Shown: piece by piece, positions 13,821 to 55,033 of the stretch
Layout of the letters: the number at the start of each line of letters is the position of its first letter
How positions within the stretch are numbered: position 1 is the stretch's first letter
IMG/VR virus record: IMGVR_UViG_3300033075_001021
Origin: a virus
Lineage: Duplodnaviria > Caudoviricetes
DNA length: 64,000 nucleotides
Reading direction: 5' to 3' (one strand)
Program-made: the position numbers and the translations under genes
Notes under the pieces: generated by a model
Told to the model about the DNA's origin: nothing
Seen by the model: the letters and a program-made list of their open reading frames with translations, nothing else
Database searches by the model: none

Positions 13821-14361
13821 ATAAATTAATTAATTTTGACATTCTTGGTTCAGCACAGCCAGTACCATATATCCAAGTTAAAAAATCACATTCACGAATC
13901 CCATATGAACCTAATTCAATTTTTCCATCACATAAAATATCAAAACCATCAGTCGTGGCAATTACTGATATTTCATTATACGGGAAATATTGACGATAAA
14001 AATTCAACGCACAATCAACTACGAAATTTAACCCAGATTTGTTTACTTCATCGGTTTTGATTAACTCATTCTTCATGAAATATTTTGTATGTAGAAAATC
14101 AAAACTTTCATAACGATAACACGGTGTTATTGTTTGAAATTGACCCTTGGGTAAAAATTCTTTGAGGTAAAGGTACAAGAAAGATTGTTCACCAGATGCG
14201 ACCAAACACTTATCATTATGTTTTAGTTGAAACGATATACGGTCCTTAGGTTTTGTAATATTGTCAACAAATTCAGACACTGTCCATGGTGCTTCAATGC
14301 GTTTAAAACCTTGCGCTTCATAAAACTTTAGTGAATCGTCGAGTAATTTATAGTTTATCAT
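13801..14361 (-). CDS. stand-alone class II aminoacyl-tRNA-synthetase-like catalytic core
   Basis: motif 2 PCYRYE...FMKNE, IELGS, motif 3 GTGCAEPR; no anticodon-binding domain. Confidence 0.7.
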   Translation of the reverse strand: MINYKLLDDSLKFYEAQGFKRIEAPWTVSEFVDNITKPKDRISFQLKHNDKCLVASGEQSFLYLYLKEFLPKGQFQTITPCYRYESFDFLHTKYFMKNELIKTDEVNKSGLNFVVDCALNFYRQYFPYNEISVIATTDGFDILCDGKIELGSYGIRECDFLTWIYGTGCAEPRMSKLINLYGLPQS

Positions 14362-29092: not shown

Positions 29093-29098
29093 ATTTTG

Positions 29099-29169
29099 CA
29101 CGAACATTCAGATTCGAACTGAAAACTGTAGTTTTGGAGACTATTATGATGCCGTTTCACCATGCTCGT
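29099..29169 (-). tRNA. tRNA-Trp(CCA) with 4-bp anticodon stem
   Basis: ATAGT-CTCCAAA-ACTAC (A27.C43), G73. Confidence 0.88.
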
Positions 29170-36550: not shown

Positions 36551-36919
36551 TTAGTTATTGTTATTGGTTGTAATTAACTCTTTACCATATAGCGGTAAGT
36601 TACTGCATAGCTTTCTTGCATCAGTAGACGCCTCAAAAGCAACGGCTGTAATTTGATTGTTAATATCTGGTTCTCTGAAGATGGTATATTTGATACCACG
36701 AAGACTGGCTTTGACAATAAGGTCTATCAAAGACTGTTCATCTTTTGTTGTGAGAATTGCTAAATGATTGGATTGTTTATGCCATTCTGTTGATACCTGA
36801 GGGTATTCGTGTTGAAAATCAATGGCAGCATGTGCGGCTTGGACGCATTGTTGTGGAAGGGATAAATCACGTCTTGTGATTACTCTAAGTTTTTCTGTGT
36901 TAGAAATCTAGTGTGTCAT
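36551..36919 (-). CDS. PTH2-family peptidyl-tRNA hydrolase with in-frame TAG at codon 4 (missed by ORF track)
   Basis: MTH*ISNTEKLRVITRRDLSLPQQCVQAAHAA...FREPDINNQITAVA; no other ATG in frame. Confidence 0.85.
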
Positions 36920-36967
36920 AACTGTTTGTTTTTTAATAAATATACTGTTTTTGTTAAAAATATCAAG

Positions 36968-37039
36968 TGACCCAGAGGGGATTCGAACCCCTACCCACAA
37001 TTTTAGAGATTGGTGTGCTGCCATTACAACCACAGGGCC
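36968..37039 (-). tRNA. amber suppressor tRNA (anticodon CTA)
   Basis: CAAT-CTCTAAA-ATTG, T arm AGGGG-TTCGAAT-CCCCT; TATCTTTG promoter at ~37050-37057. Confidence 0.85.
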
Positions 37040-37907: not shown

Positions 37908-38588
37908 TTAGACAAGTAAATTTACACGACCTTTATAGATATCTTTTATACTAGCTGTTTTATTGGTAATATGGTCAATGACAATCCCATCTTTAACACG
38001 ATATGTCCTACGTTTATCACTTCGCTCACCAGTACCAATCTGTTCCCTTCTTGTCTCAGATTCTTCTTCCATAAAACCAGTTAAATAATAGTGATTAACT
38101 CTTCGTTTAATTTCTTTATAGGCATCTTCACGATTACTTAATTGGCTTCTACCATCACGTACAACCTTTATACCAGTTGGGATATGTGTCATAATGACAC
38201 AAGAGTCCGTGGTGTTTTTATGTTGACCACCTTTGCCAGTTCCTCTGGTTGTTTCAATCTTTAGTTCATGTTGGGGAATTTCAATCTCTTTAAATGATTG
38301 ATTTTCAAGTACGGCAATGGTTATGGTACTGGTATGCACCCTACCACGATTTTCTGTCGGTGGTACACGTTGCCATCTGTGTGAACCTATTTCGTTTTGG
38401 AAAAAATCTTTGACATTTTGGCCGCTTAGTCAGATTGAAGCAAAGCCATCCCGTTCTTCGAGAACTCTTCAGTTGAAGTTATTGTTTTTGGCCGCTTTGA
38501 TATAGATGTCTTTCATATCATGAACTAGCAATTTGGAATCTTGTCCACCTTCGCTAGCCCTAATCTCTAGTGTAATTTCGTTTTTCAT
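37908..38588 (-). CDS. class I release factor (RF1-like, lacking domain 1) with two in-frame TGA codons
   Basis: LEIRASEGG...HRWQRVPPTE.RGRVHTST...GGQH.NTTDS...RS.K.RTY; TGA at 38469-38471 and 38430-38432. Confidence 0.88.
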
Positions 38589-38603: not shown

Positions 38604-38801
38604 TTACCAAACCCTAAATTTTCGTTTTTCAGCCCAAACGATATATTGATAATTGCTGTTTTTAACAGCATTAATAATACCGTTTGTTCTTTTAGTACTA
38701 ATGTAATGTGGGAGCGATTCGAGAAAAAGGATTAAATCCTCTTTGGATGTGATTTTCTTGCAGCTTGCTACCCATGTTGCTTTTCTTTTCCTTTTTTGCA
38801 T
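38604..38801 (-). CDS. hypothetical protein
   Basis: ORF track. Confidence 0.45.
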   Translation of the reverse strand: MQKRKRKATWVASCKKITSKEDLILFLESLPHYISTKRTNGIINAVKNSNYQYIVWAEKRKFRVW

Positions 38802-38977: not shown

Positions 38978-38981
38978 TTTG

Positions 38982-39066
38982 TTGCGGGAGTAGGATTCGA
39001 ACCTACACTTGCATTTGATGTCTCTAGGTTATGAGCCTAGCATGTTGCCAATTACACTATCCCGCT
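38982..39066 (-). tRNA. tRNA-Met(CAT), long variable region
   Basis: CTAGG-CTCATAA-CCTAG; 1:72 mismatch. Confidence 0.8.
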
Positions 39067-39072
39067 ATGTTG

Positions 39073-39144
39073 TTGCGAGGGGTGGATTCGAACCACCGAC
39101 CTTCTGGTTATGAGCCAGACGAGCTGCCGCTGCTCCACCTCACA
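39073..39144 (-). tRNA. tRNA-Met(CAT), initiator-like D arm
   Basis: GAGC/GCTC D stem, TCTGG-CTCATAA-CCAGA. Confidence 0.88.
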
Positions 39145-40854: not shown

Positions 40855-40902
40855 ATCTATATATTTCTATATAAATATGCGCTAGGTACAAAAAAGTCAT
40901 CG

Positions 40903-41256
40903 TGGAGAATATCGGAATCGAACCGATGTCTTGTGCATTCTTCAAAAGCTTTCTACATGTTTAGAACAGAACTTTCTAGTTCTTCGCAATATCTTGCTGT
41001 TATGGTTAACAAGAAAACCACGGAGTTATTTAGCGTCTAACTCAGAACTGACGGTTTTTGGTGGTCTACCACCATCGCAGGATTAGGCTACTGCAAGCTC
41101 TCCTGAACCCACAGTTAGGACTGCTTCGTCAAGGAAATTTTCTGATACGATAAAATCGTTGTCGTTTGTTTTTTGATAGACATTTTAAAGTGCATTCCAA
41201 TCTAGCACTACATGCTTACTAATTACGACTATACGCAATCAATACCTGTATTCCCC
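40903..41256 (-). ncRNA. ssrA: tmRNA
   Basis: GGGGAAT/ATTCTCC-A with G3:U70, T arm, internal tag frame ending GELAVA*. Confidence 0.92.
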
Positions 41257-54257: not shown

Positions 54258-54494
54258 TTAATCGCTTTTGTTGGATAAATTGCTTTTCCAGAAACCTCTT
54301 TTGACCCAAAGGGTTTTATATAATTGTGTTAACACGTTTTTTGTGATTTCAACAACCTTATCCTCAAGCTCTTTTTCATTTTTAAGCCTGTCTTTTACAA
54401 TTTTCTCTATTTTTACCTTAAATTCAGTGCTGTCCATATATACCTTAATGGCCTTATCGACATCTGATTTTTTCAATTCTTCATTGATTTTCAT
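54258..54494 (-). CDS. hypothetical protein
   Basis: ORF track. Confidence 0.6.
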   Translation of the reverse strand: MKINEELKKSDVDKAIKVYMDSTEFKVKIEKIVKDRLKNEKELEDKVVEITKNVLTQLYKTLWVKRGFWKSNLSNKSD

Positions 54495-54589
54495 AATAAA
54501 CTGATTGGTTGTTAGTAATATATAAATATCCCCTAAAAAACAAAAAAAGAGACGTAATGTCTCCTTTTTAAGTATATTTTCTATTATTT

Positions 54590-55033
54590 TTATCGAATTA
54601 GTAGGTAACCTAAAAATAAAATGACAGCCCCTGCTCCAATTTCGGTTCTAACAACTTTACGTTTGGCTTTTTTTAACTCATTTTGTAGCGGTTTAATCGC
54701 CATTTCAAGGTTTTTCTTTTCTGTGTCTTTAAGCGTAAGCATTGTTTCGTAATTCTTACCCTTTTCATCCCATAAATCAAGTTGAGACTTCTGGTTAAGA
54801 ATAATACTGTCTTTTAAGTCATTATTCTTTTGGGATAAGTTTAAGTTCGATTGCATGACATTCAATTGGTCTTGGCATGAATCCTTTCTTATGATATCTT
54901 TAACAACTTCTCTAGCTACAGCCTTAGGTAATACAACTATACTATCACCTGTTGTAGAATTCTTTGTATTTTTTTGTGAAAAAGCTATCAAGCTGACTAA
55001 CATTATAGTCGTTAATAGAATTAATTTTTTCAT
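54590..55033 (-). CDS. signal peptide + coiled coil + C-terminal TM protein (spanin-like?)
   Basis: hydropathy; near amidase. Confidence 0.55.
   Translation of the reverse strand: MKKLILLTTIMLVSLIAFSQKNTKNSTTGDSIVVLPKAVAREVVKDIIRKDSCQDQLNVMQSNLNLSQKNNDLKDSIILNQKSQLDLWDEKGKNYETMLTLKDTEKKNLEMAIKPLQNELKKAKRKVVRTEIGAGAVILFLGYLLIR

What the first reader, a model, noticed from the sequence alone, without database searches (positions are those of the whole stretch)
37908..38588. RF1-like release factor interrupted by two in-frame UGA codons
The ORF track reports only the last 143 aa, but the frame from ATG 38588 is continuous RF sequence (LEIRASEGG..., RVPPTE PxT motif, GGQ) except for TGA at codons 40 and 53. 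The first lies about where RF1 proteins often have Trp; contexts UGA-A and UGA-CUA are leaky types. TGA is a real stop elsewhere (ATGA overlaps at 14358, 14666, 34048). Inference: the UAG/UAA-type factor is made only when UGA termination (RF2) fails, and it would then suppress amber readthrough of the PTH2 gene 1 kb downstream, forming a cross-coupled stop-codon circuit that differs from the RF2 frameshift autoregulation.
Basis: partly seen in the sequence, partly recalled or inferred. Interest (0 to 1): 0.86.

Follow-up and report, generated by a model that had tools for sequence, protein, structure and literature searches.

The report
UGA-gated phage release factor gene
A giant phage carries a shortened RF1-type translation-termination factor whose gene can be read in full only if ribosomes run through two conserved in-frame UGA stop codons. 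Nearly every relative keeps a stop-codon gate at the same spot, a control so far described only, in frameshift form, for bacterial RF2.

Summary
The minus-strand gene 37908-38588 encodes a 226-aa RF1-type factor lacking domain 1, with the PPT and GGQ motifs. It has in-frame TGA at codons 40 and 53.

It is neither a pseudogene nor code 4:
- All 11 members of its clade keep both TGAs although synonymous sites are saturated.
- dN/dS is 0.1-0.25 on both sides of the TGAs.
- TGA ends 15 ordinary genes in the window, 10 of them with ATGA overlaps.

Of 152 distinct relatives, 149 carry a recoding signal, always at codons 30-55. It is either in-frame TGA (rarely TAG) or a prfB-like CTT-TGA/TAG-C +1 frameshift site. 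The base after a gate TGA is A or C in 79 of 80 cases.

I found no cognate UCA tRNA, also in two complete related genomes, and no SECIS-like hairpin.

Best reading: programmed UGA readthrough limits synthesis of the factor, or makes it depend on weak UGA termination.

A tRNA(CUA) sits directly upstream of a PTH2 gene with TAG at codon 4, and this is conserved across the clade. The functional coupling between the two is not shown.

This scan has found both devices before on other DNA. I found no published description.

The parts
37908..38588 (-). Gene for a 226-aa RF1-type class-I release factor lacking domain 1. ATG at 38586-38588, TAA at 37908-37910.
   Evidence: The AlphaFold model has pLDDT 90.9 and matches ribosome-bound RF1 at TM 0.90.
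38469..38471 (-). Gate 1: in-frame TGA, codon 40, context AAC TGA AGA.
   Evidence: It is invariant in 11 clade members. Sixteen family members have a stop in this alignment column.
38430..38432 (-). Gate 2: in-frame TGA, codon 53, context ATC TGA CTA AGC.
   Evidence: It is invariant in the clade. Thirty-nine family members have a stop in this column. The site is homologous to the CTT-TAG-C shift site of L029-L031.
38355..38363 (-). Codons 76-78, Pro-Pro-Thr: the PxT tripeptide of RF1-type stop-codon recognition, within QRVPPTE..GRVHTS.
   Evidence: It aligns to the T. thermophilus and T. maritima RF1 motif. PPT appears in nearly all of the 75 phage and viral-contig family members tabulated, whatever the gate type.
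38223..38231 (-). Codons 120-122, the GGQ peptidyl-tRNA hydrolysis motif.
   Evidence: It is invariant in alignment A4.
36967..37039 (-). tRNA with a CUA (amber-reading) anticodon, 0.87 kb downstream of the RF gene.
   Evidence: ARAGORN. It is syntenic in L009, L010, L012, L016-L020, L026, L030 and G001-G003. Odd-shaped versions occur in G004 and G005.
36551..36919 (-). PTH2-family peptidyl-tRNA hydrolase gene that begins ATG-ACA-CAC-TAG-ATT, so an in-frame amber sits at codon 4 (36908-36910).
   Evidence: Pfam PTH2 at E 7e-8 starts right after the TAG. The sequence was read directly. An early TAG is conserved in all 15 relatives inspected.
29098..29169 (-). Phage tRNA-Trp(CCA) with U11-A24 and an A27.C43 mismatch (4-bp anticodon stem). 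It is a candidate reader of the gate UGAs.
   Evidence: ARAGORN structure and sequences. G24A and 4-bp-stem tRNA-Trp variants read UGA in E. coli according to PMC13092985. The feature is not conserved in all relatives.
38981..39144 (-). Two tRNA-Met(CAT) genes upstream of the RF gene. They are part of the conserved layout.
40902..41256 (-). Phage tmRNA gene, upstream member of the same translation-rescue neighbourhood.
   Evidence: A tmRNA also lies upstream in L009 and L029.

Best explanation
The gene is functional. It encodes a compact RF1-type termination factor made of domains 2-4 only. Its mRNA carries a programmed recoding gate: two in-frame UGA codons early in the coding region, which the ribosome must read through to make the factor.

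No cognate UCA tRNA and no SECIS element are evident. Decoding is therefore most likely near-cognate, by tRNA-Trp(CCA) and possibly the phage's own unusual copy. The weak UGA-A and UGA-C contexts would help.

Readthrough competes with RF2-mediated termination. The yield of full-length factor should therefore be low by default and should rise steeply, because there are two gates in series, when UGA termination in the infected cell is inefficient or a UGA-reading tRNA accumulates.

Shown here:
- the gene is under purifying selection;
- the gate is conserved and position-specific;
- the gate is interchangeable with prfB-like +1 frameshift sites;
- the gate context is biased;
- TGA is otherwise a stop in this phage.

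Inferred, not shown:
- that readthrough occurs, and by which tRNA;
- that it responds to RF2;
- the codon specificity of the factor.
For: 1. The in-frame TGAs are real and the frame is continuous RF1 sequence. The model has pLDDT 90.9 and TM 0.90 to ribosome-bound RF1.
2. Huge-phage homologues at 45-47% identity also have in-frame TGA and end in TAA.
3. Of 152 distinct family members, 149 carry a gate. In-frame types: one TGA in 34, two TGAs in 21, TGA+TAG in 2, TAG in 3. Frameshift types: TGA in 57, TAG in 29, TAA in 1. Another 2 combine TGA with a TAG frameshift. All gates lie at codons 30-55.
4. dN/dS is 0.145 upstream of the gates, 0.25 between them and 0.105 downstream, with dS about 1. 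Both TGAs are invariant in 11 clade members.
5. The base after a gate TGA is A in 41 cases, C in 38, G in 1 and T in 0. Leu codons after a gate are CTN in 15 of 15 cases, against 50% elsewhere in these genes.
6. TGA is a normal terminator here. It ends 10 of 62 long ORFs. Fifteen ORFs of at least 100 codons end in TGA, 10 of them inside ATGA. The crude scans used here found no other TGA-interrupted gene in the window.
7. No UCA tRNA is among the window's 45 tRNAs. None is in two complete genomes of the clade, which have 56 and 58 tRNAs, nor among 59 of the 66 tRNA matches in LR756501.
8. There is no conserved RNA structure around the gates: z = +0.83 and no covariation.
9. The phage tRNA-Trp has U11-A24 and a 4-bp anticodon stem. 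Published work links such features to UGA reading (PMC13092985).
Against: - There is no expression, proteomic or reporter evidence.
- Two gates read only by near-cognate tRNA would give a very low yield, so a dedicated decoder outside the 64-kb window cannot be excluded for this genome.
- Gate stop codons switch between TGA and TAG among near-identical frameshift-type relatives that share the same PPT motif. This fits a specific RF2 sensor poorly.
- Relatives without a stop at the gate columns often have Cys (12 and 8 cases) and never Trp. The inserted residue may therefore not be Trp.
- The 4-bp anticodon-stem tRNA-Trp is absent from G001 and G004.
Confidence: 0.6

Rival explanations
1. Self-sensing by an omnipotent factor. 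The PPT-type factor recognises UGA as well as UAA and UAG, so every gate in the family (UGA, UAG or UAA, by readthrough or frameshift) is classical negative autoregulation of the prfB kind. The window's two UGAs would then be read by the factor itself.
For: The same decoding motif, QR[VI]PPTE..GR.[HQ]TS, goes with TGA, TAG and TAA gates. TGA and TAG swap between near-identical members. Hybrid genes carry a TGA gate plus a CTT-TAG-C shift site (L032 and L044). PPT is near-universal in this family, whereas the two solved RF1s aligned have PVT.
Against: The residues that restrict RF1 to UAA and UAG in solved structures are conserved in the window copy (Pro and Thr of PxT, the Gln before it, and His-Thr). 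The protein scores far higher against RF1 than against RF2. No biochemical data exist for a PPT factor.
Confidence: 0.15
2. Temporal switch by a dedicated decoder. The phage changes the meaning of UGA late in infection, through a tRNA(UCA) encoded outside the window or through its variant tRNA-Trp. The RF1-type gene would then be one of a set of late, UGA-containing genes, as in code-4 recoded phages that encode RF1.
For: TGA-recoded Jade phages encode RF1 next to a suppressor tRNA and TrpRS (Borges et al. preprint). The window holds only part of the genome. The phage tRNA-Trp has UGA-reading features.
Against: In Jade phages the RF1 gene itself is in standard code. No other TGA-interrupted gene was found in 64 kb. 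TGA ends 15 genes here. Two complete related genomes have no UCA tRNA. Some relatives end the same gene with TGA (L064 and L072). Gate TGAs never occur outside codons 30-55, and the conserved Trp uses TGG.
Confidence: 0.12
3. Pseudogene or assembly error. The TGAs are inactivating mutations or sequencing mistakes.
For: Two premature stops within 53 codons would normally mean a dead gene. One relative, L033, also has a TAA at a conserved Gln.
Against: The same stops occur in independent assemblies from many samples. Purifying selection acts on both sides. No frameshifts or further stops are present. 98% of the family is gated at the same place.
Confidence: 0.02
4. Selenocysteine insertion at the two UGAs.
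For: Relatives often have Cys (TGT or TGC) at both gate columns, which is the classic Sec/Cys pattern.
Against: There is no conserved hairpin downstream of either UGA. Gate positions move among at least five alignment columns. Other relatives have L, V, Y, R or K there. The same sites are replaced by frameshift signals. No redox role is known for this beta-hairpin of domain 2.
Confidence: 0.02

Closest known systems
Bacterial prfB (RF2) autoregulatory +1 programmed frameshift (SD-like element, CUU UGA C)
   Same: It is a release-factor gene interrupted early by an in-frame stop, and full-length synthesis depends on failure to terminate there. Eighty-nine family members use literally the same CTT-TGA/TAG-C heptamer, 69 of them with an upstream GGAGG-like element.
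   Different: The window's gene needs no frameshift. It has two in-frame UGAs, so it works by readthrough. The protein is RF1-type and lacks domain 1. The gate lies in domain 2 at codons 40 and 53, not in domain 1 at codon 26. An RF1-type factor is not expected to read UGA, so the loop would be cross-regulation, not self-regulation. Atkins et al. 2016 (PMC5009743) state that in-frame UGA readthrough in RF2 genes, and the UAG counterpart in RF1 genes, are unknown.
Release-factor gene of a giant amoeba virus, expressed by stop-codon readthrough and, separately, by frameshifting (mentioned in PMC5009743)
   Same: It is a viral release-factor gene that needs recoding, including readthrough of an in-frame stop.
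   Different: That is a virus of a eukaryote. I did not read the primary paper, so its details are untested here. The present family is bacterial-type, with RF1 domains 2-4, and occurs in phages and some bacterial genomes.
Phage-encoded RF1 and RF2 in stop-codon-recoded phages (Borges et al., bioRxiv 10.1101/2021.08.26.457843) and in huge phages (Al-Shayeb et al. 2020, PMC7162821)
   Same: Large phages carry release factors next to suppressor tRNAs and other translation genes. RF1 occurs in phages that read TGA as sense.
   Different: Those RF genes are described as written in standard code. Neither paper mentions a stop or a frameshift inside the RF gene. This phage is not TGA-recoded in the 64 kb seen.
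PrfH (RF-H), the domain-1-less release-factor paralogue
   Same: It is a short class-I RF homologue without domain 1.
   Different: The window protein scores 72 bits against the PrfH model (cut-off 167) but 198 bits against RF1. It keeps the PxT-type decoding motif. PDB PrfH matches at only E 2e-12, against 1e-39 for RF1.
Amber-gated PTH2 plus tRNA(CUA) cassette
   Same: The window carries this cassette 0.9 kb downstream of the RF gene: tRNA(CUA), then ATG-NNN(-NNN)-TAG-ATT and a PTH2 domain.
   Different: It is a separate device that also occurs without the RF gene. Its functional link to the RF is an inference.

Membership tests
Bacterial class-I release factor RF1 (PrfA) | PCRF and RF-1 domains with the GGQ catalytic motif | tested here: met
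   Pfam RF-1 at 2.8e-25 and PCRF at 2.8e-19. GGQ is at residues 120-122. Structure match to RF1 at TM 0.90.
Bacterial class-I release factor RF1 (PrfA) | RF1-type decoding elements: the PxT tripeptide, the preceding Gln, and His-Thr after GR | tested here: met
   QRVPPTENRGRVHTS aligns with QRVPVTE..GRIHTS of T. thermophilus and T. maritima RF1. The middle residue is Pro, which is unusual.
Bacterial class-I release factor RF1 (PrfA) | Full-length architecture with N-terminal domain 1, and a score above the equivalog cut-off | tested here: not met
   The match starts at model position 104 of 347. The score is 198 bits against a cut-off of 400. No domain-1-like ORF lies upstream. It is therefore RF1-like, not a canonical PrfA.
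Bacterial class-I release factor RF1 (PrfA) | Peptide release at UAA and UAG but not UGA | not testable with these tools
   This needs a release assay.
prfB-type recoding-gated release-factor genes | An early in-frame stop that must be bypassed to make the factor, conserved among homologues | tested here: met
   149 of 152 family members are gated at codons 30-55. Both TGAs are invariant in the clade.
prfB-type recoding-gated release-factor genes | +1 frameshift at CUU-UGA-C with an upstream SD-like stimulator | tested here: not met
   The window gene stays in frame across both TGAs. Relatives do have the heptamer.
prfB-type recoding-gated release-factor genes | The gate codon is read by the encoded factor itself (autoregulation) | tested here: inconclusive
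   The RF1-type motif argues against UGA recognition. Swaps between TGA and TAG gates under the same motif leave it open.
Genome-wide UGA reassignment (code 4 or 25) | TGA in frame in many genes, no TGA terminators, and a cognate tRNA(UCA) or loss of RF2 | tested here: not met
   TGA ends 15 ORFs, 10 of them with ATGA overlaps. No other interrupted gene was found. No UCA tRNA is present.
Bacterial selenoprotein genes | A SECIS hairpin just downstream of the UGA | tested here: not met
   No conserved structure and z = +0.83.
PrfH | A score above the PrfH equivalog cut-off | tested here: not met
   72 bits against a cut-off of 166.65.

The most novel reading that the evidence does not exclude
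The phage runs a stop-codon homeostasis circuit made of translational gates.

An RF1-type factor is made only when UGA termination fails, and two UGAs in series make the response steep. The factor then competes at UAG with the neighbouring phage amber-suppressor tRNA. That tRNA is itself required to express the adjacent PTH2 gene, which has TAG at codon 4. Release, suppression and peptidyl-tRNA recycling would thus be cross-regulated by the three stop codons.

A variant reading is that the PPT factor is a natural omnipotent bacterial-type release factor, and that every gate in the family is self-sensing.
Probability: 0.2. Interest if true: 0.9.

Novelty: new variant of a known kind. Interest (0 to 1): 0.78.

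Why it matters
Programmed recoding inside a release-factor gene is a textbook case known in bacteria only for RF2, and only as a +1 frameshift. A standard review states that the readthrough version, and any RF1 counterpart, are unknown (PMC5009743).

Here a large family of phage and mobile-element RF1-type factors carries such gates almost universally. The family uses both solutions, readthrough and frameshift, at the same site, and it uses UGA, UAG and even UAA.

This has three consequences:
- Gene callers truncate or miss these genes, so phage release factors are under-annotated.
- The family is a natural series for studying how stop-codon context, frameshifting and readthrough interconvert.
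- It suggests that large phages monitor and adjust the termination capacity of the infected cell.

The compact, domain-1-less factor and the leaky UGA cassettes could also be useful parts for genetic-code engineering.

Tried and rejected
- **Global recoding.** ORF totals under codes 4 and 15 and under TAA-sense readings showed no gain on the coding strand beyond chance. A codon-usage scan and a missing-start scan found no further TGA-interrupted gene. The hits at 44.1-44.7 kb are a plus-strand gene, and those at 14-553 and 54258-54647 were unconvincing.
- **A cognate UGA suppressor.** ARAGORN called a tRNA-SeC(tca) in the close relative G001. Its homologue in the window (1480-1553) has a perfect 5-bp stem with loop CTTTCAC and anticodon UUC. 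The G001 sequence also folds better in that register. I therefore read it as tRNA-Glu and not as a suppressor.
- **A DNA search for tRNA-Trp in relatives.** It was too insensitive, so I replaced it with an Rfam tRNA search plus ARAGORN.
- **A readthrough-stimulating or SECIS-like RNA structure.** None was found.
- **A domain 1 encoded by the in-frame upstream 65-aa ORF (38604-38801).** It has no Pfam match and is not conserved in relatives, where a tRNA-Met sits instead.
- **The window's own whole genome.** It is not held.
- **The first profile scan.** It failed because the alignment had no conserved stretch. It worked after I dropped fragments and the most divergent row.

Full report
**1. What is in the sequence**

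The minus strand of 37908-38588 reads as one frame of 226 codons. It starts at ATG 38586-38588 and ends at TAA 37908-37910. It is interrupted only by TGA at codon 40 (38469-38471, AAC TGA AGA) and at codon 53 (38430-38432, ATC TGA CTA).

Read through, the protein matches the C-terminal half of the Pfam PCRF domain and the whole RF-1 domain. It scores 198 bits against the NCBIfam RF1 model, 112 against RF2 and 72 against PrfH. The match begins at RF1 model position 104, so domain 1 is absent.

Against solved structures it aligns with T. thermophilus RF1 residues 107-330 at E 1e-39, against 1e-23 for RF2. The alignment shows the RF1 decoding elements QRVPPTE..GRVHTS and the GGQ motif.

An AlphaFold model built on 40 family sequences has pLDDT 90.9. 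It superposes on ribosome-bound RF1 at TM 0.90 and 2.5 A. The two gate codons lie on the two strands of one beta-hairpin of domain 2, residues 39-46 and 49-56.

**2. The surroundings**

The window is part of a very large phage genome. It holds 45 tRNA genes, a tmRNA, ClpP, DnaJ and a PTH2 gene. Nearly all genes are on the minus strand.

The standard code fits. Among 62 long ORFs, 49 end in TAA, 10 in TGA and 3 in TAG. Fifteen ORFs of at least 100 codons end in TGA. Ten of these stops sit inside ATGA overlaps with the next gene, and reading them through adds only 0-31 codons. Codon-usage and missing-start scans found no other TGA-interrupted gene.

**3. Relatives**

tblastn against phage records found the closest matches, at 45-47% identity, in the 595-735 kb genomes of Al-Shayeb et al. 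Four of the five closest carry one or two in-frame TGAs in the same short region, and all five end in TAA.

I then ran two profile scans. The IMG/VR scan gave 215 relatives, of which 80 were kept. The scan of bacterial and archaeal genomes gave 86, of which 80 were kept. Those are mostly metagenome bins, plus Myxococcota chromosomes.

After building gene models, 152 distinct proteins remain, and 149 of their genes carry a recoding signal:

| Gate type | Members |
|---|---|
| One in-frame TGA | 34 |
| Two in-frame TGAs (the window's type) | 21 |
| TGA plus TAG, both in frame | 2 |
| In-frame TAG | 3 |
| +1 frameshift at TGA | 57 |
| +1 frameshift at TAG | 29 |
| +1 frameshift at TAA | 1 |
| In-frame TGA plus a TAG frameshift | 2 |
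| No gate | 3 |

The shift sites are CTT TGA C (43), CTT TAG C (28) and CTT TGA G (12). In 69 of 89 cases a GGAGG-like element lies upstream, as in the prfB cassette. Every gate lies at codons 30-55. The only stop elsewhere is a TAA at a conserved Gln in L033.

**4. Selection**

Eleven sequences form the window's clade, at 64-78% identity. Both TGAs are invariant in them although dS is about 1. dN/dS is 0.145 for codons 1-39, 0.25 between the gates and 0.105 downstream. The 5' part is therefore translated in the same frame as the rest, and the stops themselves are kept by selection.

The base after a gate TGA is A (41) or C (38). It is almost never G (1) and never T (0). Leu codons that follow a gate are always CTN, in 15 of 15 cases, against half elsewhere in the same genes. 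This fits selection for weak termination contexts.

**5. Evolution of the gate**

On a maximum-likelihood tree the gate type changes at least 38 times. In the window's own clade, the second TGA (TGA CTA AGC) is replaced in L029-L031 by TGT CTT TAG C. That differs by one substitution and one inserted T, which turns a readthrough gate into a +1 shift site. L032 and L044 combine the first TGA with that shift site.

Among frameshift-type members, TGA and TAG swap between near-identical sequences. The decoding motif with PPT is the same for all gate types.

**6. How the UGAs might be decoded**

No tRNA with a UCA anticodon is in the window. None is in two complete 353- and 362-kb genomes of the clade, which have 56 and 58 tRNAs. 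None is among 59 tRNAs of LR756501. One ARAGORN 'tca' call in G001 is best explained as a mis-registered tRNA-Glu(UUC).

No conserved RNA structure surrounds the gates, which argues against selenocysteine.

The window's tRNA-Trp(CCA) has U11-A24 and an A27.C43 mismatch, giving a 4-bp anticodon stem. According to PMC13092985, G24A and 4-bp-stem variants of tRNA-Trp read UGA in E. coli. However, G001 and G004 have 5-bp stems, so this remains a lead.

At the gate columns, relatives without a stop have L, V, Y, A or C, or R, K, C, E or L. Cys makes up 7-9% of these residues, against a 1% background, and Trp never occurs. The inserted residue is therefore open.

**7. The neighbouring amber device**

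A tRNA(CUA) lies at 36967-37039, 0.87 kb downstream of the RF gene. Forty-seven bases after it, a PTH2 gene opens ATG ACA CAC TAG ATT.

The same arrangement is present in L009, L010, L012, L016-L018, L020, L026, L030, L060 and G001-G005: a CUA tRNA, then ATG, one or two codons, TAG ATT and a PTH2 domain. It is often followed by a tRNA-Cys. In G004 and G005 the tRNA has an odd shape that ARAGORN finds only with relaxed settings.

Whether the RF1-type factor modulates this amber gate is untested.

**8. Interpretation**

I am confident, at about 0.9, that this is a conserved programmed recoding signal in a working gene.

The most economical mechanism is near-cognate UGA readthrough competing with RF2. 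That makes the factor scarce by default and inducible when UGA termination weakens. The two gates in series sharpen the response.

Two findings keep other models alive:
- The free exchange of UGA and UAG gates under one decoding motif keeps open a self-sensing model, in which the PPT factor would read all three stops.
- The limited window keeps open a late-phase decoder.

Pseudogene, assembly error, genome-wide code 4 and selenocysteine are rejected.

**9. Literature and earlier notes**

- Atkins et al. 2016 state that early in-frame UGA readthrough in RF2 genes, and the UAG counterpart in RF1 genes, are unknown. They mention only a giant amoeba virus whose RF gene needs readthrough and frameshifting.
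- Borges et al. describe phage RF1 and RF2 genes written in standard code.
- Al-Shayeb et al. list RF1 and RF2 in huge phages without comment on recoding.
- Further searches found nothing on gated phage RFs.
- This scan has already reported the same family on other DNA: e1-3258985, e1-5362146, e1-5362161, e1-5617980, e1-957497 and e1-5355468. It has also reported the amber-gated PTH2 cassette, for example e1-933198. My analyses here reproduce those claims independently.

**10. Limits**

Everything here is computational. The host is unknown. A Bacteroidota-type host is suggested by a 63%-identical copy in a Bacteroidetes bin (L089) and by earlier notes. The rest of this phage genome could not be examined.

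Noticed in passing
window:36551-37039 (-): A tRNA(CUA) lies directly upstream of a PTH2 gene that opens ATG-ACA-CAC-TAG-ATT. An early TAG is conserved in all 15 relatives inspected. In G004 and G005 the tRNA has a reduced D-arm and is found only with relaxed ARAGORN settings.
   Followed up: yes
window:29098-29169 (-): The phage tRNA-Trp(CCA) has U11-A24 (Hirsh-like) and an A27.C43 mismatch, giving a 4-bp anticodon stem. One of the two tRNA-Trp genes of LR756501 shares the A27.C43 mismatch. G001 and G004 do not.
   Followed up: partly
window:34048-36015 (-): A phage-encoded TonB-dependent receptor (Plug and beta-barrel domains, 655 aa) lies just downstream of the translation island. It ends at a TGA inside ATGA.
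   Followed up: no
window:1386-1473 (-) and 1556-1915 (-): An 88-nt tRNA-like gene is called Glu(ttc) but has a long variable arm (loop CTTTCAA). A Cys-rich ORF, possibly a homing endonuclease, is inserted between tRNA-Phe and tRNA-Glu; I ran no domain search on it. In G001 the homologous slot holds the tRNA that ARAGORN mis-called as tca.
   Followed up: partly
L021/L022:1463-1666: A 76-codon N-terminal fragment of a second RF copy, keeping both TGA gates, lies about 1 kb upstream of the full RF gene, which has only one gate. It looks like a remnant of gene replacement.
   Followed up: no
L033 (IMGVR_UViG_3300009149_000025), RF codons 48 and 182: This RF gene has an in-frame TAG at the gate and a TAA exactly at a Gln conserved in 133 of 150 relatives. 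That could mean TAA and TAG are read as Gln in that phage, or that the gene is decaying.
   Followed up: no
L221:4342-4414 (G005, complete 353-kb phage): ARAGORN calls a tRNA with anticodon TTA (ochre-reading) in a phage whose RF gene has a TGA gate plus a CTT-TAG-C shift site. I did not inspect it.
   Followed up: no
L158-L167, L127 (Nannocystis, Minicystis and other Myxococcota chromosomes): Frameshift-gated members of the family (GGGAG-N4-CTT-TGA-C) sit in complete bacterial chromosomes, so the family is not confined to phages.
   Followed up: partly
window:38604-38801 (-): A 65-aa ORF with no family match lies in the same frame as the RF gene. It is separated from it by TAA, three codons, TGA and one codon. 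It is not conserved in relatives.
   Followed up: partly
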